Assembly (NCBI GenBank): GCA_038231455.1
Contig: JBBRLI010000016.1
Coordinates: forward strand, 1 to 64,000
DNA: 64,000 nt
Origin: Vulcanimicrobiales bacterium
GTDB lineage: Bacteria; Vulcanimicrobiota; Vulcanimicrobiia; Vulcanimicrobiales; Vulcanimicrobiaceae
Direction of reading: 5' to 3'
A program made the position numbers and the translations under genes. A model generated the notes under the pieces. It was given only the letters and a program-made list of their open reading frames with translations. It did no database searches and had not been told where the DNA came from. Below are positions 1,149 through 51,020 of the stretch, one piece after another. Position 1 is the stretch's first letter; each line of letters begins with the position of its first letter.

Positions 1149-1624
1149 GCGCGGCGGCTCACAAGGACGCTGCCGTCGGGCGGCGGGACGGTCCCGCGAC
1201 GTTTGTACGTGCCGGGTTGCTCGACGCCGGCGCGTTGGATGATCGCGACGGTCTTCATCAGCCGATCCATTCCGGCAAGAATCAACGATTTGTTATTCTC
1301 GTTGGTGAGTCCGAGCGCGTGCGTGGAGACTTGAATCTCACACATATCGCCATACAGGTTCCACGCAATTTCGCGCGGCGCGTACGCGATGACGCTTGCG
1401 ATCGACATCTCGCCAAAGCCCCGCTTCTGCGTCTCAACGCGGCGTTGGAACACGGCGTTGTGACGGCTTTGCTCGACTTCGAGCTTCCGCTCCGAAAGAG
1501 AAATTGCCGTCGTATCGTTTTCTACGAGGGCGCTCGTCATTTCCATCGCGACGGTGTTGAGCACGCGGAGCTGATCGCGCTCGGCGCGCAGCATGTCGGC
1601 AAAACTATTCCAGCTATCGCTCAT
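1145..1624 (-). CDS. flgN: FlgN-family flagellar export chaperone
   Basis: 159 aa helical protein between flgM and flgK, with an NxxNxxLI motif and C-terminal GTY. Confidence 0.75.
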   Translation of the reverse strand: MSDSWNSFADMLRAERDQLRVLNTVAMEMTSALVENDTTAISLSERKLEVEQSRHNAVFQRRVETQKRGFGEMSIASVIAYAPREIAWNLYGDMCEIQVSTHALGLTNENNKSLILAGMDRLMKTVAIIQRAGVEQPGTYKRRGTVPPPDGSVLVSRRA

Positions 1625-1658
1625 GTGCGGCTCCCGTCGGTGTGCGGAGCCGCAGCGA

Positions 1659-1931
1659 CTACGCTAGGGCGGCCTCGGCGAAGAGACGTCCCAAAATCTT
1701 TTCCACGATCTGCTCGCTCGGCACGAAGTACTGGCCCTGCGAAATTCTGCGGCCCAACTCGTTGACGAGTTCCTCGCGAAAAAACGGCGACTGCTTCACA
1801 TCGGCGGCGAACGCCGCAAGCGAGAGTCCGTCCCCGGCCACGTAAGAATCCGACGGTGAGGACGGCGTGCGCTTGCGCGCTGGCCGATTGGCGGAAATCG
1901 CTGAGCTGACTTCCGTCCGGCTGATGATCAT
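1659..1931 (-). CDS. flgM: anti-sigma28 factor
   Basis: C-terminal REELVNELGRRISQGQYFVPSEQIVEKIL is FlgM-like. ATG 1931 follows a CAGGAG RBS. Confidence 0.8.
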   Translation of the reverse strand: MIISRTEVSSAISANRPARKRTPSSPSDSYVAGDGLSLAAFAADVKQSPFFREELVNELGRRISQGQYFVPSEQIVEKILGRLFAEAALA

Positions 1932-1966
1932 GCAGGTCTCCTGGGATTGCTTCCTTGCTAAGGAAA

Positions 1967-1994
1967 GCATCGGACCAGGACAAGCGCGACTTTA
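1967..1994 (-). promoter_or_regulatory. sigma28 (FliA/SigD)-type promoter upstream of flgM
   Basis: TAAA-N16-TCCGATGC on the minus strand, versus consensus TAAA-N15/16-GCCGATAA. Confidence 0.6.
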
Positions 1995-2000
1995 GCATTT

Positions 2001-2396
2001 TCACGGCCCAACCTCGGGTTCGCGAGGCGACGATTTCGCATCCGTGTTCGGCGCCACAACCGGTAGGGCGGCGCCCGCCGGCGGACCGCTTGGGAGCGAG
2101 CCGATGACTGACTGACGGAGCTGTGCTTCCATGAGCTTGCCGATCCCAAGCGAGCCGGTTTTGGCAAGGTCTTCCGCGCGCTTTTCGTCGAGCATTTCAC
2201 CGAAGGTGCGTTCTGCCTCACCGATCTTGCCGGTGATTGAGGTCTTGGACTGGCCTTCGCGCATCGTCTTGAAGAGCATGTTAACGAACACGCTCTCGAA
2301 TTGCTGCGTTGCGTCGTGCAGCTTCTTGAGCGCCGAGCGTTGCTCGGAGGTCAGGTTGGCGTCGGCGTCCGGCGGCGGGATGCGATCGATCGACAT
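2001..2396 (-). CDS. flgJ: FlgJ rod-binding domain protein (no muramidase domain)
   Basis: KLHDATQQFESVFVNMLFKTMR and GLGIGKLM motifs; follows flgI. Confidence 0.85.
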   Translation of the reverse strand: MSIDRIPPPDADANLTSEQRSALKKLHDATQQFESVFVNMLFKTMREGQSKTSITGKIGEAERTFGEMLDEKRAEDLAKTGSLGIGKLMEAQLRQSVIGSLPSGPPAGAALPVVAPNTDAKSSPREPEVGP

Positions 2397-5639: not shown

Positions 5640-6443
5640 CTAGCGGCTCGAGTGGCCGACGTACTGAATCGCTTGATTCGTCGCGTCGTCTTGTGCTTGG
5701 ATCACTTTTTCATTAGCGTCGAACCAGCGCTCGGCGGCGATCAAATCGACCATCGAGCGTACGACATTGGCGTTGGATTTTTCGAGGGTGCCCTGCAGCA
5801 CGTTGCTGCCGGTCGCAGGCGTCGGGCCGGCGCCGCCATCGATGAAACGGTTCGAGCCTTCGCTCCGCATGAAGCGCGTATCGCGAAATTCGACCGTTTG
5901 AATCTGATCGACGAAGCGGCCGTTGACGGTGATATTGCCTTTGCGGTCGACTAAGAAGTCACCGGAGTCGGGAACTTGGATCGGGTTCCCGTTCTGACCG
6001 ACAACGGCATCACCGCTATCGGTCACGAGCTTGCCGCTGTTATCGCGAACGAAGCCGCCATCACGCGTGTAGCGCAACTGCCCTTGCGGATTACGCACGG
6101 TGAAGAACCCCGGACCCTCGATCGAAAAATCGAACGGGTTGTTTGTTGTTTGCGTCGGGCCTTGTTCGAAGACGGTCGGCGTATCGGGCGTATCGTAGAT
6201 GCGCGAGCCGAAGCCCAGCGGACCAACGTACGCGACGCCGGCTCGACCGGGCGTGTGCGAACCGGGCGCCGTGCCGTTCTCGGTCTGAAGGCGATAGATC
6301 TGCGCCTTCTCGATCGATTCGACTTGGAGGAACGTGCGCTTGAAACCGTTGGTATTCGTATTTGCGATGTTATTCGCAATGACGTCCACGTTGGCTGTCG
6401 CGACGACCGCTCCGTTAGCGGCGATATAGAGACCACGAACCAA
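5640..6443 (-). CDS. flgF: flagellar basal-body rod protein FlgF (FlgF/FlgG family)
   Basis: Start taken as TTG 6443 (MVRGLYIAANG) with a GGAGG RBS. ANNIANTNTNGFK, YTRDG and LEKSNANVV motifs. Confidence 0.88.
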   Translation of the reverse strand: MVRGLYIAANGAVVATANVDVIANNIANTNTNGFKRTFLQVESIEKAQIYRLQTENGTAPGSHTPGRAGVAYVGPLGFGSRIYDTPDTPTVFEQGPTQTTNNPFDFSIEGPGFFTVRNPQGQLRYTRDGGFVRDNSGKLVTDSGDAVVGQNGNPIQVPDSGDFLVDRKGNITVNGRFVDQIQTVEFRDTRFMRSEGSNRFIDGGAGPTPATGSNVLQGTLEKSNANVVRSMVDLIAAERWFDANEKVIQAQDDATNQAIQYVGHSSR

Positions 6444-6451
6444 TTGAAAAA

Positions 6452-6567
6452 GCCTCCGCACGATTGGTGCTCGTGCCCGGCATTGCGCCAAGCGTCGAGC
6501 AAGATAGCCATCAATCAATCCGGCTATCCCAGCGGTCTCCACCCGTGCGAAGGGCAGTCCGACCGCT
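6452..6567 (-). ncRNA. candidate structured cis-regulatory RNA in the flgF 5' leader
   Basis: Three consecutive hairpins with G-U pairs favouring the minus strand. Two loops are complementary to the segment adjoining the RBS (see findings). Confidence 0.5.
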
Positions 6568-6578
6568 ATACCTTTTGG

Positions 6579-6606
6579 TGTTCGGCAACTTCTTAGAGAA
6601 CCTTTA
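6579..6606 (-). promoter_or_regulatory. sigma28-type promoter upstream of the flgF leader
   Basis: TAAA-N16-GCCGAACA on the minus strand. Confidence 0.65.
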
Positions 6607-6637
6607 GCTTCCCCTCCTCGATGGTGCCACCTCGGGC

Positions 6638-8413
6638 TCAGGCAGCGGGGATCGATCGTCCTGCGAGCGTGGCGAGAACCGAGATGAGCCCTTGGGGCGT
6701 GCTCGCGCGGTCGGTAAAGTCTGCCATCACCGCTGCGATTCGGAGCCGATGGCTCTGCCGCTCCGCTGCGATCTCCGGTGGGACTTCGCGGGACCCGTAG
6801 AGCGCGTCCAGTGTCGGTAGGTAGAACGTGCGCAGCAATCCGGTCTGTTGACCGACCAACCCCAAGCGGGCCGAGACTTCGAGCGTCAGATCGGGCAGGA
6901 CGGCGATTGGCTCGGTTGCTTCGAAGCGCATGATCTGGTCGAAATCTTCAAGGAGGGAGACCGACTCGTTGAAGAGACCCGCGCGCACGAAGGCGCGGCG
7001 ATTGGCAAGGAGGGCGTTGAGCGGCAGACTATTGGCAATCGAGCTCTCCCACGGCGCGTCGAGGGCAGGACCGCGATAGATGCCCTCGACCGAGGCCACC
7101 AGAGCCGAGTCGAGGGCGCGCGGCTCGAACCGCACGACCTGGAGGCGCGCCGAGCTCGCAACGACTTGCGAACCCGTGCGCTCGATTCCCGAAACGAGCG
7201 CCTCGAGATGATCGGGCAAGAAGCGGTTGTCCTCATCGAGGAACGCAAGATATTCGCCCCGAGCGAGGCGCAGTCCGAGATTTCGCGCGGCGCCCGGCGG
7301 CAAGACCGCGGGCAGCCGCACGTAGGTGATGCGCTCGGCCCAGGGATGGTCGTGGATGAGTTCGCGTAGCGGAATCACGCCGGCGTCGACGACGACGATC
7401 TCCCAGTTTGCGAACGATTGCGCGCACACCGAGTCAATCGCGGCTAGGGCTTCTCCCGGCAACCGGGTCACGGGCACGATCACGCTCACGCGCGACTCTC
7501 GAACGCGAGCGGGCTCGTACGCCTGGGCTTGTTTACCAAACTGTGCGCGGAGCCGAGCAATCCGTTCGTGGACCTCGCCCGGTAAGGGATCTTCCCCGAT
7601 CGTCGAGCGAACCGAGGCGACCATCAAATCGATGAAATTGACGAATGAGAGCTGGCGCCCGAAGAGCCGTTCCAGACCCGGGTGATTCGCGTACCGCTCC
7701 GCCATCTGCACTAGTTCTATGACGTAGCCGCCGCGATTGTGAAACGACGAGCCGGAGGCATTATTCCCGTGCGCACGCACGCAAGCTGAAGGCTCGGCAA
7801 GATACGCAAACCGCTTTCCCTCTGCGGCGCAGCGAATCGCAAACTCCCAGTCCGAGCAAAACGGCAACGTCTCATCGAGCGGGCCAAGTTCTTCGAAGAG
7901 TTCGCGCCGGAATAGTGCGGCGGGCAAACACAATTGACAGAACGTCGCGAGCATTTCCGGCAGCTCGTCGCGGATGTCGACATAGTCGAAGGGGAGTTGG
8001 CTCGTCTCCGCTTTGACCGCGAACGTGCGCTCGTGCTCGTCGGCAAAGAGAATATTGGTGTAAACGACATCGAGCGCGGAGTTGCGTTCGAACACGGCCG
8101 CAAGACGCTCGAGATGGCGCTCGAGAAACCAGTCATCCGCGCACAGCCAAACGATGAATTCACCGCGCGCGTGCGTGAGGGCGCGATTGAAATTGCGGAT
8201 TAGACCGATATTTTCTTCGTTTTCAAACACGCGCACGCGTGGATCGTGTGCGTATCGCGACCGTAAGACGGTCATCGTCTCGTCGGTCGAGCGATTGTCG
8301 GTCACGACGATTTCAAAATTTTCGTACGTCTGCGCAAGGACGCTATCGATCGATTTTTCGATGAATCGCGCGTAGTTATACGACGGAATCAAAACGGAGA
8401 TGAGCGGCTTCAC
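6638..8413 (-). CDS. glycosyltransferase with two GT2 (GT-A) domains
   Basis: Domain 1: ISVLIPSYN...DNRSTD...LCADD. Domain 2: VSVIVP...ARNLGLRLARGEYLAFLDEDN. Confidence 0.9.
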   Translation of the reverse strand: MKPLISVLIPSYNYARFIEKSIDSVLAQTYENFEIVVTDNRSTDETMTVLRSRYAHDPRVRVFENEENIGLIRNFNRALTHARGEFIVWLCADDWFLERHLERLAAVFERNSALDVVYTNILFADEHERTFAVKAETSQLPFDYVDIRDELPEMLATFCQLCLPAALFRRELFEELGPLDETLPFCSDWEFAIRCAAEGKRFAYLAEPSACVRAHGNNASGSSFHNRGGYVIELVQMAERYANHPGLERLFGRQLSFVNFIDLMVASVRSTIGEDPLPGEVHERIARLRAQFGKQAQAYEPARVRESRVSVIVPVTRLPGEALAAIDSVCAQSFANWEIVVVDAGVIPLRELIHDHPWAERITYVRLPAVLPPGAARNLGLRLARGEYLAFLDEDNRFLPDHLEALVSGIERTGSQVVASSARLQVVRFEPRALDSALVASVEGIYRGPALDAPWESSIANSLPLNALLANRRAFVRAGLFNESVSLLEDFDQIMRFEATEPIAVLPDLTLEVSARLGLVGQQTGLLRTFYLPTLDALYGSREVPPEIAAERQSHRLRIAAVMADFTDRASTPQGLISVLATLAGRSIPAA

Positions 8414-8458
8414 GGCATTCGGGTGTTTGCCGCAAGACCGGCGATTTCACTCTTCGCC

Positions 8459-9301
8459 TTACGGCGTCGTCACTTCCACCGCCGGTAAGAGGGCAGCGAA
8501 TCGCTCCTCGACCGCGCGCGCGCCCGGGGGCCGGGCCGCCGGATCGAAATCCAAGAGCGCATCGACGAGCGTGACGAGCCCCGGGTCGTGACCGAGGGGT
8601 GGAACGCGAATTGGCGCAGCATCCGGCCCGATTCGACTCAGGGCAATCATCCAGGCCGGCGCTTTGCCCTCCGGGAGCTCCCCCGTCATCATTTCGTAGC
8701 ACACGACGCCAAGAGCGAAGAGATCGGATGACGGCGTCGCCGGCGACCCGGTCATCAAGCGCGGTGAAGCATACGGCATCGAGCCGACCACGATGTCATC
8801 GCCCGGGGGTGGCTCGTGGTCGTCTGCTTCGAGGCGAGCGAGGCCAAAGTCACCGAGTTTCGGTGTGCCGTCCGCATCGATGAGCACGTTAGCGCTCTTC
8901 ACATCACGATGGACGATGCCGGCTTCGTGCGCGATGCAGAGCGCGCGGGCAATAGCGATCGCAAAGTGCACCGTTTGAGGATCGGGAAACGGCGCGTGCT
9001 CGCGAATGAGCGTGCGCAGCGAACCGCCCGGAACATACTCGAGAACGAGGTATGGCCGCCCCTCGTGTTCGCCAATGTCGTGAATAGCGATTACGCTGGT
9101 GTCGTCGATTTTCGCGACGGCGCGGGCTTCGCTATAGAGGCTCTCAGTGACGACCGGGTCGGAGGCAAGTCGCGGCTGTAACAGCTTGATCGCGACCGTG
9201 CGTTCGAGCACCGTATCGAAAGCTTGGTATACAACGGCCATGACGCCGCTTCCGACCACGTGATCGAGCCGGTACCGGCCTCCGAGAAGCGCTTCATCCA
9301 T
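8459..9301 (-). CDS. Hanks-type Ser/Thr protein kinase (kinase domain only)
   Basis: GSGVMAVVY, VAIK, HRDVKSAN and DFG present; the APE motif appears as SPR. Confidence 0.9.
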   Translation of the reverse strand: MDEALLGGRYRLDHVVGSGVMAVVYQAFDTVLERTVAIKLLQPRLASDPVVTESLYSEARAVAKIDDTSVIAIHDIGEHEGRPYLVLEYVPGGSLRTLIREHAPFPDPQTVHFAIAIARALCIAHEAGIVHRDVKSANVLIDADGTPKLGDFGLARLEADDHEPPPGDDIVVGSMPYASPRLMTGSPATPSSDLFALGVVCYEMMTGELPEGKAPAWMIALSRIGPDAAPIRVPPLGHDPGLVTLVDALLDFDPAARPPGARAVEERFAALLPAVEVTTP

Positions 9302-46318: not shown

Positions 46319-47665
46319 TTAGGCCGGCAGGCGCGTGAGACTCGCCGCGACGGGGGAAAGTTTGATCGCAATAATCGCCAGGTCATCGCCGATCGTCCCG
46401 CCGGAGCGTTTGCGGATCTCCGCGACGAGCGAATCGCAGATCGTCTGCGGATCGTCGCTCGCTCGAGCAAAAAGCGCGCGGATACCGTCTTCGCCGAGCA
46501 AGTCGCCCGACGCATCGCGCGACTCGGTCAGGCCGTCGGTTGCAAGCAAGATCGTTTCGTTCTCCGCCAGGCTCACGGTGTTTGCCGTAAAGAGTTCGTT
46601 TGGCCCAATGCCGACGATCGGACCGGTCACCTCGAGCGACTCGATGCGATCCGCGCGCCGGATGAACGCGGCGCTATGACCGGCGCTCGCGTACCGCATC
46701 GACATCGCGCGCGTATCGAGCAACCCCAAAAACAACACGACGAAGGTGGACGGGTTCGTGATTGTCTCGGCAAAGAGCCGGTTGAAGCGCGTGAGGATCA
46801 CCGCGGGATCGTCGCCGTCCGTGGCAAGCGTCCGTAGTGCGTACTGGACGAACGCACCGTCGACGGCCGCATCGATGCCTTTACCGCTGACGTCGGCGAT
46901 GAGGATGTAGCCGCGATCCGAATCGAGCCGCCACGTATCGAGTAAATCGCCTCCGATGAGCGCCTCGCGCGTTGCGGAGATGTACGTCGTGCCGATTTCC
47001 GTACGATCGAGCGAGCTTGCTTCCGCGCGCAACGCGCGCTGCAGGGTCGTGACAATTGCATGTTCTTTATCGAGCGCAGCGACCGCCGACGCGCGCGAGA
47101 TCGCGAGCATCAGCGCCCAGATCGCAAAGAGCGTGATAAGCCCGGCGCTGATCGCGACCGTCGTATTGATGCGGCGCTTGAGGACGGTTTGAACCCGCTG
47201 ATCTTCGACTTTGAGCCGCGTCCGAAGCGCGGAGACGTCGGCGGTGAAGCGGTCGATCTCGAGTTTACTTTCGGTTAGCCGGCGGCGCGCCGCGAGCGGG
47301 TCGCTTTTCTTGAGCGGCGCGCGGGCGGAGACTTCCCAGCGCTGGTGCGCGATCCGGATGTCCTCGATGAGGTTCGCTGCATCTTCGATCTGGGCGCCGA
47401 TCAGGCCGCGCGAGAGCGCGGTGAGGGCCGCGAAGGTCGGATCGTAGATCGCCGGGTCGGGCTCGTAGGTCGCTACCGGCACGCCCGCGCGCACCGCGGA
47501 TTCCTCATCGAGCTGGGCGCGCAGGAGCGACTCGAGGTCCTCCTGGGCTGCCGTGATGCGAAATTCGGTCGTCGCGGCCGCATCGAGCTGCCGGACAGCC
47601 ACGATCGGCCCGCCGAGAGCGACGGCGAGAAACACGCCGATCAGCAGAAAAATTGGAGGCGACAC
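46319..47665 (-). CDS. membrane sensor (CHASE3-like) PP2C/SpoIIE phosphatase; start uncertain (GTG 47665 in the tRNA, or ATT 47653)
   Basis: Two TM helices around a helical sensor; [22 protein letters not shown] and DDLA. Confidence 0.88.
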
Positions 47666-47727
47666 CCAGATTCGAACTGGGGGTGGAGCTTTTGCAGAGC
47701 TCTGCCTTACCACTTGGCTATGTCGCC
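47654..47727 (-). tRNA. tRNA-Cys(GCA)
   Basis: GGCGACATAGCCAAGTGGTAAGGCAGAGCTCTGCAAAAGCTCCACCCCCAGTTCGAATCTGGGTGTCGCCTCCA folds as a cloverleaf with encoded CCA. Confidence 0.97.
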
Positions 47728-47763: not shown

Positions 47764-47837
47764 TGGAGCGGGTGGCGGGAATCGAACCCGCGCGTCAACC
47801 TTGGGAAGGTCGCAGGCTACCATTACATCACACCCGC
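47764..47837 (-). tRNA. tRNA-Gly(CCC)
   Basis: GCGGGTGTGATGTAATGGTAGCCTGCGACCTTCCCAAGGTTGACGCGCGGGTTCGATTCCCGCCACCCGCTCCA. Confidence 0.96.
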
Positions 47838-48947: not shown

Positions 48948-51020
48948 ACGAGCATCCGTTCTTCGTTCATCCGTTTTGGGGCCGCGGTTTCTGCAGCCGC
49001 CCTGCTCGCATTTGCCGGCACGAGCGCCACGCGCGCGACCGGCATTCCGGGGCCGCTCGCCGCACCCGCCTTTGACACGGCCAACCTCGACGTGAGGTGT
49101 CCGGCGTGCAAAGACTTCTTTCAATACGCAACCGGCGGATGGCGCGCGAAAAACCCGATTCCGCCAGAGTATTCGTCGTGGGGCCGCTTCTCGACCACGT
49201 ACGAAGCAAATCAAGCGGTCCTCCACGCAATCCTCGAGAGCGCGGCGGTCGACTCCGTCGCAGCACCGGGATCGACAACGCAGAAAATCGGCACGTTTTA
49301 TAAAACGTGCATGGATACCGAGGCGATCGAGAAGCATGGTCTGGGCGGCATCGCCGAACCGCTCGCGGCCATCGACCGCATTGCGACGCGCGCCGCCGTT
49401 CAGCGTACGATCGAACGCCTGCAGCCGCTGGGAGTGAACGCGGTCTTTGCGTTCGGCTCGGCGCAAGATGCGAAAAACAGCACGCGCGTCATCGGTGAGA
49501 TCGACCAAGGTGGCCTCGGACTTCCCGACCGCGATTATTACACCAAAACCGATGCAGCGAGCGTCAAACTACGCACGCAGTATGCTGCGCACGTCGCCAA
49601 AATTCTTCATCTCTTGGGCCAGAGCGACGCGCAAAGCACTGCCGATGCACGCGCGATCGTGGCACTCGAGACCACGTTTGCGCGCGCGCAATTGACCAAC
49701 GTCCAGTTGCGCGATCCGAATGCCAGCTACCATCTCTCGACGGTCGCAGCGATGCGCCGCGTCGCCCCCGATGTGAACTGGCCCGAATATTTCTCCGCGG
49801 TTGGCGCACCGAAGATGGCGCAGCTCAACATCGCGGAGCCCGGGTATCTTGGGGCCGTGAGTACGCTTCTCGCAAGCGAACCGCTCCCCGTCTGGCGCGC
49901 GTATCTGCGCTTTCACACGGTCGATGCCTTCGCGGCCTCGCTGCCAAAAACGTTCGCCGATGAGAACTTCGATTTCAACGAACGCATTCTCCAGGGAACG
50001 AAAAAACAACGCCCGCGCTGGAAGCGTTGCACCGCTGCGACCGACGCGTATCTCGGCGAAGCGCTGGGGCAAGTTTACGTCGCCAAAGCCTTCCCGCCCG
50101 CTGCGAACAAACGCGCGCACGAACTCGTCGAGAATCTTCAGGCGACGCTGCATGACGATATCAGCACGCTTGCCTGGATGTCGCCTGCAACCAAAACGTA
50201 CGCGCACAAGAAACTCGCCGCATACGCAAAGAAAATCGGCTACCCGAAAAAGTGGATCGACTACTCGACCTACCACGTCGGGGACGATTCCTACGCGGCC
50301 AACACCGAACGCGGCCGCGCTTTTGGTTGGAAGCGGGATCTTGCAAAGATCGGTCGTCCGCTCGATCGCGGCGCCTTCGGCATGAGTCCGCCCACGGTGA
50401 ATGCCTACTATAATCCGCAGCTCAACGAGATCGTGTTCCCGGCCGGGATCCTGCAGCCGCCGTTCTTCAACGAGAATGCCGACGATGCGATCAATTACGG
50501 CGCGATCGGCGCCGTCATCGGGCACGAAATGAGCCACGGCTTCGACGATCAGGGCCGCCAATACGACGCCGTCGGCAACTTGACCGACTGGTGGACCAAG
50601 AGCGATGCGGTGAAATTCGCGGCCCGCGCGAACTGCATCGTGAAACAAGCCGACAACTACGTCGTCCTACCGGGTGTGCACGAAACCGGAAAGCTCGTGC
50701 AAGGCGAGGCCATCGCGGACCTCGGCGGTCTTACGATCGCGTATAAGGCCTACGAACGCTCGCTGCGCGGTAAACCGCATCCCGCCCCGATCGACGGTCT
50801 CACCGCCGAACAGCGGTTCTTCATCGGCTGGGCGCAAGTCTGGGCCGAAACCGACCGACCCGAAAACACCAAACTACTCGTCAACACCGATCCCCACCCG
50901 GCACCGTCGTTCCGCGTCAACGCGACCGTATCGAACATGCCGGAATTTGCCAAAGCGTTCTCGTGTGATGCGAAGAGCGCGATGGTCCGCCCCGCCTCGC
51001 AACGCTGCGAGATCTGGTAA
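48948..51020 (+). CDS. M13 (neprilysin/PepO-like) metallopeptidase, paralog 1 (probable ACG start)
   Basis: VNAYY, HEMSH, GEAIADLGG and C-terminal CEIW; signal peptide. Confidence 0.93.
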   Translation, partial: TSIRSSFIRFGAAVSAAALLAFAGTSATRATGIPGPLAAPAFDTANLDVRCPACKDFFQYATGGWRAKNPIPPEYSSWGRFSTTYEANQAVLHAILESAAVDSVAAPGSTTQKIGTFYKTCMDTEAIEKHGLGGIAEPLAAIDRIATRAAVQRTIERLQPLGVNAVFAFGSAQDAKNSTRVIGEIDQGGLGLPDRDYYTKTDAASVKLRTQYAAHVAKILHLLGQSDAQSTADARAIVALETTFARAQLTNVQLRDPNASYHLSTVAAMRRVAPDVNWPEYFSAVGAPKMAQLNIAEPGYLGAVSTLLASEPLPVWRAYLRFHTVDAFAASLPKTFADENFDFNERILQGTKKQRPRWKRCTAATDAYLGEALGQVYVAKAFPPAANKRAHELVENLQATLHDDISTLAWMSPATKTYAHKKLAAYAKKIGYPKKWIDYSTYHVGDDSYAANTERGRAFGWKRDLAKIGRPLDRGAFGMSPPTVNAYYNPQLNEIVFPAGILQPPFFNENADDAINYGAIGAVIGHEMSHGFDDQGRQYDAVGNLTDWWTKSDAVKFAARANCIVKQADNYVVLPGVHETGKLVQGEAIADLGGLTIAYKAYERSLRGKPHPAPIDGLTAEQRFFIGWAQVWAETDRPENTKLLVNTDPHPAPSFRVNATVSNMPEFAKAFSCDAKSAMVRPASQRCEIW

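What the first reader, a model, noticed from the sequence alone, without database searches (positions are those of the whole stretch)
6452..6567. Three-hairpin RNA in the flgF leader whose loops can dock onto the ribosome-binding region (candidate new riboswitch or translational switch)
Seen: about 130 nt separate a sigma28-type promoter (6579-6606) from the flgF TTG (6443), and the minus strand there folds almost completely. Hairpin A is AGCGGUC/GACCGCU plus CUGCCC/GGGUGG with loop UUCGCAC. Hairpin B is GGGAUAGCC/GGCUAUCUU with loop GGAUUGAUUGAU. Hairpin C is GCUCG/CGAGC plus GCUUGGC/GCCGGGC with loop GCAAU. The 3' tail CCAAUC-GUGCGGAGG follows. Loop A is complementary over 7 nt to GUGCGGA, which overlaps the GGAGG Shine-Dalgarno, and loop B (GAUUG) is complementary to the adjacent CAAUC, so a double pseudoknot could mask the RBS. 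G-U pairs favour the mRNA strand. Known: c-di-GMP riboswitches often precede flagellar operons, but I cannot see the class I or II consensus here. Inference: an undescribed cis-regulator of the flgF-flgK operon.
Basis: partly seen in the sequence, partly recalled or inferred. Interest (0 to 1): 0.75.

Follow-up and report, generated by a model that had tools for sequence, protein, structure and literature searches.

The report
Conserved flagellar rod/hook mRNA leader motif
The flgF leader holds a real, conserved two-hairpin RNA, absent from Rfam, that precedes rod and hook genes in flagellated Eremiobacterota and here can pair with the ribosome-binding site; what it senses is unknown.

Summary
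The minus-strand leader 6441-6580 folds better than all 200 shuffles (z -3.8). Hairpins A and B are conserved with strong covariation across 57 distinct homologues (96.7% paired, 18 of 20 pairs with double changes). No Rfam 15 family matches, and six paper searches found no description.

In a phylum sample the long form occurs in all 25 flagellated genomes of the window's family and in no unflagellated one. It lies before flgF in 54 of 57 cases, mostly behind a sigma28-type promoter.

The apical part of hairpin A is a near-invariant anti-SD, 10-11 bp with CGUGCGGAGG. Covariation for that helix is thin.

Hairpin C is a variable insert.

New here: hairpins A and B form a portable core, with a GGA bulge and a 12-nt loop holding three GA. 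The core also sits before flgE in 31 of 31 loci checked, including this genome's, and before other flagellar genes in distant families.

Best reading: a translational operator read by an unknown factor. A riboswitch is not excluded.

The parts
6579..6606 (-). sigma28-type promoter: TAAA(G)-N15-GCCGAACA
   Evidence: Sequence read; pattern match. TAAA-N14-17-CCGA lies within 60 nt upstream in 51 of 57 distinct homologous leaders. A FliA/WhiG sigma factor is encoded in the genome (263.8 bits, cut-off 189.6). The consensus itself is recalled. The transcription start was not mapped.
6532..6566 (-). Hairpin A of the core: P1 (GCGGUC/GACCGC), a 3-nt GGA bulge (6560-6558), P1b (CUGCCC/GGGUGG), apical loop UUCGCAC, and a single purine (6538) opposite the bulge
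   Evidence: P1 is 97.7% paired with 6 of 6 pairs showing double changes. P1b is 93.4% paired with 4 of 5. The G of the bulge and the C after it are invariant in 62 of 62 sequences.
6544..6553 (-). Anti-SD segment CCUUCGCACG (3' end of the P1b 5' strand, the loop, and the first P1b 3' nucleotide)
   Evidence: It pairs with 6453-6462 in the MFE. 95.1% of cells are pairable across 57 sequences. Mean duplex energy is -14.7 against -6.6 kcal/mol for shuffled loops.
6501..6530 (-). Hairpin B of the core: a 9-bp stem and the 12-nt loop GGAUUGAUUGAU (6521-6510), of the form n-GA-nn-GA-nn-GA-n
   Evidence: 97.8% paired, with 8 of 8 pairs showing double changes. The three GA are invariant in 62 of 62 sequences.
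6469..6500 (-). Hairpin C, a lineage-specific variable insert
   Evidence: It folds. The stretch between hairpin B and CGUGC is 13-48 nt long in 54 leaders, and G000 has the longest. It is not part of the conserved motif.
6453..6462 (-). CGUGCGGAGG: the Shine-Dalgarno GGAGG plus a conserved 5' extension that pairs with the anti-SD
   Evidence: GUGCGGAGG is invariant in the 12 seed leaders and the C before it nearly so (11 of 12). GUGC is kept in all 55 anchored sequences.
6441..6452 (-). U-rich spacer (CUUUUUCAA) and the TTG start codon of flgF
   Evidence: The start is TTG in 53 of 54 leaders. The N-terminus LVRGLY... is conserved.
5640..6443 (-). flgF (267 aa), first gene of the flgF-flgG-flgA-flgH-flgI-flgJ-orf127-flgN-flgK cluster, which runs to the window start
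   Evidence: Pfam hits.

Best explanation
The flgF leader is a conserved cis-regulatory mRNA element made of two modules.

Module 1 is a portable core of two adjacent hairpins. Hairpin A carries a GGA bulge opposite a single purine. Hairpin B has a 12-nt loop with three GA dinucleotides at 4-nt spacing. In flagellated Eremiobacterota (Vulcanimicrobiota) this core precedes genes for flagellar axial proteins: flgF and flgE in the window's family, and flgG, flgD, flgE or flgN-flgK elsewhere.

Module 2 is specific to the flgF leaders of the window's family and its sister family. The apical part of hairpin A is an anti-Shine-Dalgarno sequence. It can pair with CGUGCGGAGG over 10-11 bp, either as a loop-tail pseudoknot or, after hairpin A opens, as a long-range helix that encloses hairpins B and C. 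Either way the ribosome-binding site of a weak TTG start is buried.

Inferred mechanism: a trans-acting factor reads the invariant bulge and loop of the core and so shifts the balance between SD-free and SD-sequestered states. A protein of the flagellar system seems most likely. This would tune translation of the rod operon and, by a simpler route, of the hook gene.

Shown: the structure, its conservation, its gene association and the SD complementarity.
Inferred: that translation is the step controlled, the direction of control, and the nature of the factor.
For: Structure
- z -3.81 for the single sequence.
- 57 distinct homologues: 96.7% of cells paired, 18 of 20 pairs with double changes, 0 of 500 shuffles as good, and slid controls at 33-50%.
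- An independent MAFFT alignment of 62 cores gives 94.2%, 15 of 18 pairs and 0 of 500.
- Many G-U pairs fix the strand as the mRNA strand.

Association with flagella
- Phylum sample of 151 genomes: the long model hits 25 of 71 genomes of family f1 and 1 of 1 of f2.
- These are the same genomes that carry FlgI: 25 of 71 and 1 of 1, with identical genus tallies.
- 54 of 57 hits sit directly before FlgF.

The core is a module
- R2 with filters off finds it about 20-30 nt before the FlgE start in 31 of 31 FlgE loci, at 17.6-45 bits.
- The best background hit in the 64-kb window scores 14.1 bits.
- In these flgE copies hairpin B is 97.3% paired, with 8 of 8 pairs showing double changes.
- G000 has exactly these two copies.
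- The core also occurs before flgG, flgF, flgE, flgD and flgN-flgK in four more distant families.

SD sequestration
- The helix is in the MFE.
- 95.1% of cells are pairable.
- Duplex energy is -14.7 against -6.6 kcal/mol for shuffled loops, with z below -2 in 45 of 54 leaders.
- The SD is paired with mean probability 0.85 in 54 ensembles.
- At the helix end, an A in the loop always meets a U in the tail (18 of 18). Overall 50 of 55 pairs are standard.
- Family f2 has a different anti-SD, CUGCCCUC, with GAGGGCAG. In one genome it reads CUGCCUUC with GGAGGCAG, a C-G to U-A change read from the sequences and consistent with the duplex. Three of 5 genomes show a contiguous 8-bp duplex.

Not coding
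- An in-frame stop lies in 41 of 54 leaders, and leader lengths fall in all three frames.
Against: - No transcript data: no RNA run holds the locus, so neither the 5' end nor expression is known.
- The core of the anti-SD helix never varies, so it has no covariation of its own (0 double changes).
- The one covarying end pair reduces to about 3 changes on the FlgF tree. There are only 2-3 independent pairs, which is not significant by sign test.
- 23 of 55 leaders have a C-A mismatch inside the helix.
- In 2 of 5 f2 genomes the duplex is no better than shuffles.
- In some leaders the MFE keeps hairpin A and buries the SD in a local hairpin with codons 2-3 instead. SD burial therefore need not depend on the anti-SD.
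- The flgE copies have no anti-SD at all, so the core's own action is unexplained.
- Only 4 credible of 20 flagellated genomes outside f1 and f2 have a detectable core.
- No candidate binding protein was identified.
- The CM-fitted alignment A3 leans towards the model's structure.
Confidence: 0.55

Rival explanations
1. It is a riboswitch. The two-hairpin core would be an aptamer for a small molecule tied to motility, for example a cyclic dinucleotide or another nucleotide messenger. The anti-SD helix would be its expression platform.
For: - The aptamer-like core is conserved and covaries.
- Unpaired nucleotides are invariant: the GGA bulge and three GA.
- In flgF leaders there is an evident SD-sequestering platform.
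- There are several copies per genome, before functionally related genes. This is typical of riboswitch regulons.
- c-di-GMP riboswitches before flagellar operons are known (recalled).
Against: - There are only about 10 invariant unpaired nucleotides and no multi-helix junction, which is simpler than most aptamers.
- No match to any Rfam riboswitch family at E up to 10.
- The flgE copies lack any recognisable expression platform that involves the core.
Confidence: 0.2
2. It is a CsrA-binding leader. The FliW-CsrA module of the same flagellar system would bind the GGA of the hairpin-A bulge and the GGA of the SD, and repress translation as it does for flagellin mRNA in Bacillus.
For: - G000 encodes adjacent fliW and csrA.
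- In several relatives csrA lies about 6-11 kb downstream in the same cluster (coordinates).
- A GGA is conserved in the bulge, and another lies in GGAGG.
Against: - The bulge GGA is not in a hairpin loop.
- 3 of 57 leaders have GGU there (L010, L104, L138).
- GGA in loop B is not conserved (CGA or UGA in most).
- CsrA does not track the motif. It is found in 67 of 71 f1 genomes, including 25 of 25 of an unflagellated genus. It was not found in the motif-bearing genomes G062 and G026.
- The three invariant GA are not explained.
Confidence: 0.1
3. It is a factor-independent structural element. It would act as a 5' or intercistronic stem-loop pair that protects the downstream message from RNases or marks a processing site. 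The SD pairing would only set a constant low translation rate.
For: - In flgF leaders the core starts about 8-15 nt after the predicted -10 element, so near the 5' end.
- In flgE leaders it lies in the flgD-flgE intergenic gap, 15-30 nt after a stop codon. That is a typical place for processing or stabiliser hairpins.
- The SD is buried by several alternative pairings.
Against: - Simple stabilisers do not need invariant bulge and loop nucleotides kept across families while the stems change freely.
- The same loop signature in two unrelated positions argues for specific recognition.
Confidence: 0.12
4. It is a transcription attenuator. The anti-SD:SD helix, followed directly by the U-rich spacer (UUUUUCUUUUG in most leaders), would act as an intrinsic terminator, with hairpin A as the antiterminator.
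For: - A GC-rich 10-11-bp helix is followed at once by a U-rich run, which is conserved in f1 flgF leaders.
- Hairpin A and the helix exclude each other in nested folds.
Against: - The terminator loop would be 50-90 nt long and hold one or two hairpins, which is unusual.
- The terminator scan found nothing in 6200-6900, though it only allows loops of 3-8 nt.
- f2 leaders keep the anti-SD pairing but have no U-run.
- G000's own spacer is CUUUUUCAA.
Confidence: 0.05
5. It is chance structure, a DNA-level palindrome (operator), or an N-terminal extension of FlgF starting at the in-frame GTG at 6542.
For: - An ORF is open from 6542.
- GC-rich DNA folds readily.
Against: - z -3.81.
- Compensatory changes and abundant G-U pairs.
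- In-frame stops in 41 of 54 leaders, and indels in all frames.
- The Flg_bb_rod domain starts at residue 5 counted from the TTG.
- Only two copies per genome, at orthologous places.
Confidence: 0.01

Closest known systems
SD-sequestering translational riboswitches and protein-dependent translational operators (for example ribosomal-protein leaders)
   Same: A conserved structured sensor lies in the 5' leader. A segment of it can alternatively pair with the Shine-Dalgarno region. There are several copies before functionally related genes.
   Different: No sequence or structure match to any of the 4227 Rfam 15 families. The effector is unknown. The anti-SD lies in the apical loop of a hairpin, not in a P1 stem. 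A second class of copies, before flgE, has the sensor but no anti-SD.
c-di-GMP-I (GEMM-I) riboswitch before flagellar operons, such as Cd1 upstream of flgB in Clostridioides difficile (recalled, not read here)
   Same: A cis-acting RNA with two side-by-side hairpins in the leader of an early flagellar operon.
   Different: No cmscan match. There is no GNRA tetraloop and receptor pair. Cd1 acts by transcription termination, whereas here the evident output is SD burial.
CsrA-bound hag (flagellin) leader of Bacillus subtilis with FliW (recalled)
   Same: Post-transcriptional control within the flagellar system, a GGA overlapping the SD plus an upstream GGA, and fliW-csrA present in this genome.
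   Different: The targets are rod and hook genes, not flagellin. The upstream GGA is in a bulge. The invariant GA triplet loop has no counterpart. CsrA presence does not follow the motif.
flg-Rhizobiales RNA motif (Rfam; name recalled)
   Same: An orphan structured motif upstream of flagellar genes, confined to one bacterial lineage.
   Different: A different lineage, and no match of the window leader to any Rfam model.

Membership tests
c-di-GMP-I riboswitch (GEMM-I) and c-di-GMP-II riboswitch (Rfam) | A match to the family covariance model (sequence plus structure). | tested here: not met
   cmscan of 6300-6750 at E up to 10 gave only BjrC68 on the opposite strand (17 bits against a gathering score of 39). 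The whole window at gathering thresholds gave only two tRNAs. Four homologous loci at E up to 1 gave nothing relevant.
Riboswitch (generic) | A conserved, covarying aptamer-like structure in a leader. | tested here: met
Riboswitch (generic) | An expression platform that overlaps the aptamer. | tested here: inconclusive
   Present in flgF leaders as the anti-SD helix. Not recognisable in the flgE copies.
Riboswitch (generic) | Direct, selective binding of a small molecule. | not testable with these tools
   Needs in-line probing, SHAPE or ITC.
CsrA/RsmA-regulated leader | Two or more GGA motifs, typically in hairpin loops, one of them overlapping the SD. | tested here: inconclusive
   GGA lies in GGAGG and in the hairpin-A bulge, not in a loop. 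Three of 57 leaders have GGU in the bulge. GGA in loop B is not conserved.
CsrA/RsmA-regulated leader | The regulator co-occurs with the target motif. | tested here: not met
   CsrA is in 67 of 71 f1 genomes, including unflagellated genera. No hit in the motif-bearing genomes G062 (97% complete) and G026.
RNA thermometer (fourU, ROSE) | A weak, imperfect hairpin that pairs a U-rich or UYGCU segment with the SD; a match to the Rfam models. | tested here: not met
   No Rfam match. The helix is GC-rich, 10-11 bp, with duplex energies of -8 to -22 kcal/mol. That this is too stable to melt at growth temperatures is inference.
Intrinsic terminator or attenuator | A GC-rich hairpin with a short loop, directly followed by a U-run. 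| tested here: inconclusive
   The scan found none in 6200-6900. A long-range helix followed by a U-rich spacer exists in f1, but not in f2.
Kink-turn | A 3-nt bulge followed on the same strand by tandem sheared G-A pairs. | tested here: not met
   After the GGA bulge comes a conserved C paired to G (58 of 62), not G-A. The defining rule is recalled.

The most novel reading that the evidence does not exclude
The two-hairpin core (GGA bulge plus triple-GA loop) is the aptamer of a new riboswitch class. It would sense a motility-linked signalling molecule and directly gate translation of the flagellar rod and hook genes in Eremiobacterota. That would make it an RNA checkpoint on flagellar assembly, in place of or alongside protein regulators.
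Probability: 0.18. Interest if true: 0.85.

Novelty: new variant of a known kind. Interest (0 to 1): 0.62.

Why it matters
Post-transcriptional control of flagellar assembly is known mainly for flagellin (CsrA-FliW, FlbT) and, at the RNA level, for c-di-GMP riboswitches in a few lineages.

This is a lineage-wide RNA signature placed before the rod and hook genes. Those are the early axial parts, whose stoichiometry and timing matter for building the basal body. The lineage is a candidate phylum with a single cultured member, and that member is unflagellated (PMC9758169, passages read).

If a factor reads this core, it defines a small post-transcriptional regulon (flgF operon, flgE, and in one genome an NHL-repeat lipoprotein). 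It would then give a concrete handle, whether a protein or a ligand, on how these bacteria time flagellar assembly.

The flgF form also shows how one sensor module gains an SD-sequestering output. Two sister families use different anti-SD/SD sequences for this.

If no factor exists, it is still a clean new orphan motif suitable for Rfam.

Tried and rejected
- **Rfam.** Three searches matched nothing relevant.
Rejected. Mean duplex energy is -2.85 against -4.24 kcal/mol for shuffled loops, z below -2 in 0 of 54 leaders, and E of -5 or better in 6 of 54.
- **Genome-collection pattern scan.** Too loose. The other 95 were treated as chance matches and dropped.
- **RNA evidence.** No RNA holder was listed for 5640-6900. 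The transcription start and expression remain untested.
- **Earlier findings of this scan.** Nothing by place, sequence or words.
- **My first estimate of the anti-SD helix probability (P above 0.5 in 36 of 54).** It undercounts. The regex anchors were wrong for some leaders, and one search shows that L010, L104, L145 and L157 do form the helix. I did not recompute it, so I use only the mean SD-paired probability from that call.
- **Permutation test of the covarying end pair (0 of 5000).** It ignores relatedness. The tree-aware count is only 3 changes and 2-3 independent pairs, so I treat this as weak support.
- **Weak R1/R2 hits judged false or unclear.**
  - L164 (24.8 bits, no flagellar gene downstream).
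  - L222 and L229.
  - L220.
  - Six of the 8 hits of my own descriptor scan.
- **Hit kept only as partial.** L224, before flgD, lacks the triple-GA loop.
- **Rows left out of counts.**
  - L162, L163 and L164 from the 54-leader analyses.
  - L162 and L164.
  - L004 (short ORF in the locus) from the tree.
  - L245, L248 and L260 from alignment A5.
- **Paper searches.** (and 87, for the cultured strain) found no description of such a motif. Only search listings and abstracts were seen, plus passages of PMC9758169.
Full report
**1. What is in the sequence**

Read on the minus strand, the 195-nt gap between a two-domain family-2 glycosyltransferase gene (6638-8413) and flgF holds the following features.

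- A sigma28-type promoter, TAAAG-N15-GCCGAACA, with TAAA at 6606-6603 and GCCGAACA at 6586-6579 (pattern match).
- Hairpin A: P1 GCGGUC/GACCGC, bulge GGA at 6560-6558, P1b CUGCCC/GGGUGG, loop UUCGCAC.
- Hairpin B: 6530-6501, with the loop GGAUUGAUUGAU.
- Hairpin C: 6500-6469.
- The tail ACCAAU-CGUGCGGAGG (SD region 6462-6453), a U-rich spacer, and TTG at 6443-6441.

The ORF from that TTG has the three FlgE/F/G rod-family Pfam domains. Downstream lie flgG, flgA, flgH, flgI, a rod-binding (FlgJ-like) gene, a 127-aa ORF with no Pfam match, an flgN-like gene (29.7 bits, just under the cut-off of 30.5) and flgK, which runs off the window start.

The leader folds better than chance. The MFE is -59.3 kcal/mol, z is -3.81, and 0 of 200 shuffles fold as well.

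The MFE does not keep hairpin A. It pairs CCUUCGCACG (6553-6544) with CGUGCGGAGG as a 10-bp helix around hairpins B and C.

**2. It is conserved, and the stems covary**

A 261-nt DNA query found matches in 12 of 61 related genomes. These were 11 of 36 in the same family (f1), 0 of 5 in f2 and 0 of 19 in f3. Identity ran down to 67% over the leader itself.

Twelve leaders aligned cleanly. RNAalifold recovered hairpins A and B.

A covariance model, R1, then confirmed 25 of the 120 loci returned by a loose pattern scan of one-genome-per-species contigs. Seventeen of these 25 had printed titles. Fifteen are named Eremiobacterota, Vulcanimicrobiota, Baltobacteraceae, Vulcanimicrobiaceae, Aquilonibacter, Lustribacter or Velthaea, and two carry Acidoferrum or Acidiferrales labels. 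NCBI places the three genera in Vulcanimicrobiota.

On 61 hits (57 distinct; alignment A3) the results were as follows.

| Measure | Result |
|---|---|
| Cells paired | 96.7% |
| Pairs with double changes | 18 of 20 |
| Shuffles as good | 0 of 500 |
| Slid registers | 33-50% paired |

A3 is fitted to the model, so I repeated the count on a plain MAFFT alignment of 62 cores (A4). That gave 94.2% paired, 15 of 18 pairs with double changes and 0 of 500 shuffles.

Frequent G-U pairs fix the strand as that of the mRNA.

One row of these alignments (L003, genome G029) comes from an unpublished genome. No claim depends on it alone.

**3. It goes with flagella**

I searched an evenly drawn sample of 151 genomes of the phylum.

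- R1 hit 27 genomes, counting G000: 25 of 71 in f1, 1 of 1 in f2, and 0 of 79 in the other families.
- FlgI (PF02119) in the same sample hit 25 of 71 in f1 and 1 of 1 in f2, with identical per-genus tallies and the same handles.
- FlgI also hit 20 genomes of other families that have no R1 match.

So within the window's family, every flagellated genome sampled has the leader and no unflagellated one does.

Fifty-four of 57 distinct hits lie directly before an ORF that begins LVRGLY... (FlgF). Fifty-one of 57 have TAAA-N14-17-CCGA within 60 nt upstream. The start codon is TTG in 53 of 54. G000 encodes a FliA/WhiG sigma factor.

The leader is not coding. An in-frame stop occurs in 41 of 54 leaders, and their lengths fall in all three frames.

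**4. Anti-SD pairing**

The segment CC(U/C)U(C/U)GCACG in the apical part of hairpin A, and CGUGCGGAGG, are both nearly invariant.

- Of 510 cells, 95.1% can pair, but none shows a double change.
- The duplex is much stronger than for shuffled loops: -14.7 against -6.6 kcal/mol, with z below -2 in 45 of 54 leaders.
- In 54 thermodynamic ensembles the GGAGG is paired with mean probability 0.85.
- In some leaders the partner is instead codons 2-3 (CGUGC with GUACG).

Anchoring on GCAC and GUGC shows that the helix extends by pairs that do vary. At the second position outwards the pairs are G-C 22, G-U 10, A-U 18 and non-standard 5. An A in the loop always meets a U in the tail.

On a FlgF tree this amounts to about 3 changes and 2-3 independent pairs. 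None contradicts the pairing, but they are too few for significance.

The sister family f2 (5 of 5 genomes) has the same core but a different apical sequence and SD context.

- CUGCCCUC faces GAGGGCAG.
- In one genome CUGCCUUC faces GGAGGCAG. This C-G to U-A change is read from the sequences and is consistent with the duplex.
- Three of 5 genomes give a contiguous 8-bp duplex (z -2.3 to -3.6). Two of 5 do not.

I conclude that SD sequestration by hairpin A's apical part is well supported as a possibility and modestly supported by evolution. In the leaders examined, energies of the alternative states lie within about 1-7 kcal/mol of each other.

**5. What does not hold**

Loop B does not pair with the tail in general.

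Hairpin C occupies a stretch that ranges from 13 to 48 nt, and G000 has the longest.

Some lineages instead carry an extra hairpin between the promoter and hairpin A.

**6. The core is a module used elsewhere**

Upstream regions of rod genes in more distant families showed a shorter version. It has P1, the GGA bulge, a 3-4-bp P1b with a small loop, and hairpin B with the same loop pattern.

In all 62 aligned cores the three GA of loop B (n-GA-nn-GA-nn-GA-n) are invariant, as are the G and C of the bulge region.

A core model, R2, gave these results.

- **flgE leaders.** Second, weaker copies appeared before a FlgE-like gene of about 490 aa in several f1 genomes. I then fetched FlgE loci from 29 of 32 genomes, plus G000, and searched them without filters. 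All 31 loci had a hit at the same place, about 20-30 nt before the FlgE start, at 17.6-45 bits.
- **Background.** The best background hit in the whole 64-kb window scores 14.1 bits.
- **Covariation in flgE copies.** Hairpin B is 97.3% paired, with 8 of 8 pairs showing double changes.
- **Position of flgE copies.** They lie in the flgD-flgE intergenic gap. They have no sigma28 promoter and no anti-SD. The SD (CGAAAGG or GAGG) follows hairpin B by 10-20 nt and often pairs with codons 2-4.
- **This genome.** G000 has exactly two genuine copies, the one in the window and one on another contig before flgE.
- **Other families.** The core precedes flgG (f5), flgF and possibly flgD (f7), flgF and flgE (f11), and an flgN-like gene and flgK (f18). 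Only 4 credible of 20 flagellated genomes outside f1 and f2 show it.
- **One exception.** One f1 genome carries a second flgF-type copy, with its anti-SD/SD pair, before an NHL-repeat lipoprotein gene.

**7. Mechanism**

Shown: a structured core with specifically conserved unpaired nucleotides, used in at least two leaders per genome before flagellar axial-protein genes. In the flgF leader it comes with a built-in means to bury the RBS of a weak start codon.

Inferred: a factor recognises the bulge and loop and changes RBS access.

A protein seems to me the more likely reader, for two reasons. The motif is simple: two plain hairpins and about ten invariant unpaired nucleotides. And the flgE copies offer no RNA-only output.

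CsrA is the obvious candidate, because fliW and csrA are present. But it fits poorly.

- The GGA is in a bulge.
- It is GGU in 3 of 57 leaders.
- The GA triplet is unexplained.
- CsrA occurs in 67 of 71 f1 genomes whether or not they are flagellated, and was not found in two motif-bearing genomes.

Other readings remain open: a small-molecule riboswitch, a factor-independent stabiliser or processing site, and an attenuator that uses the helix plus the U-run.

**8. Known or new**

No Rfam 15 family matches the window leader or four distant homologues.

Full-text searches found nothing on such a motif. I saw listings and abstracts only.

The only cultured member of the phylum lacks flagella and a flagellin gene (PMC9758169, passages read). 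Nothing could therefore have been learned from it.

The kind of element is familiar: a structured leader with SD sequestration. The family, its triple-GA loop signature and its rod/hook regulon are not.

**9. Limits**

- There are no RNA data.
- All genomes but one are metagenome bins.
- Relatives are not independent.
- E-values of the home-made models are rough.
- The direction of regulation and the effector are unknown.

Noticed in passing
G000 contig C9, about 65434-65493 (+); locus L230 1413-1472. Outside the window.: A second copy of the core motif lies in the flgD-flgE gap of the same genome, 29 nt before the FlgE start. It has a short hairpin A and no anti-SD.
   Followed up: yes
L163 1501-1606 (-), genome G129: A duplicate of the flgF-type leader, with its GCACG/CGUGC pair and a degenerate promoter, sits before an ATG-started NHL-repeat lipoprotein gene beside glutamine synthetase. 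This looks like a regulon extension.
   Followed up: partly
flgE leaders L230-L260: The SD context CGAAAGG is complementary to codons 2-4 (GCUUUCG, encoding Ala-Phe-Asp). This gives a local hairpin that buries the SD and the start codon. A similar CGUGC:GUACG option exists in many flgF leaders.
   Followed up: partly
G000 contig C58, 2764-3385 (+): fliW and csrA are adjacent. Across the family, csrA is also present in unflagellated genera (25 of 25 genomes of one genus), so it is not flagellum-specific here.
   Followed up: partly
window 1621-2004 (-): A 127-aa ORF between the rod-binding (FlgJ-like) gene and the flgN-like gene has no Pfam match. By position it could be an FlgM-like anti-sigma factor.
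   Followed up: no
window 50053-50077 (-): The only other TAAA-N14-16-GCCGA match in the window. Two matches against 1.33 expected, so it may be chance.
   Followed up: no
window 47657-47727 and 47767-47837 (-): Two tRNA genes, the only Rfam gathering-level hits in the window.
   Followed up: no
window 6638-9301 (-): Upstream of the promoter lie a 591-aa protein with two family-2 glycosyltransferase domains and a 280-aa Ser/Thr protein kinase. No terminator-like site was found between the glycosyltransferase gene and the promoter.
   Followed up: no
L122, L049, L123, L158, L032, L159, L016: In these lineages the sigma28-type promoter lies about 45 nt further upstream, and an extra small hairpin precedes hairpin A.
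   Followed up: no
flgF leaders, spacer between the SD and TTG: The spacer is strikingly U-rich (for example UUUUUCUUUUG) in genomes of about 60% or more G+C. TTG is the start in 53 of 54 leaders. Either an S1 or standby feature or a terminator U-run could explain it.
   Followed up: partly
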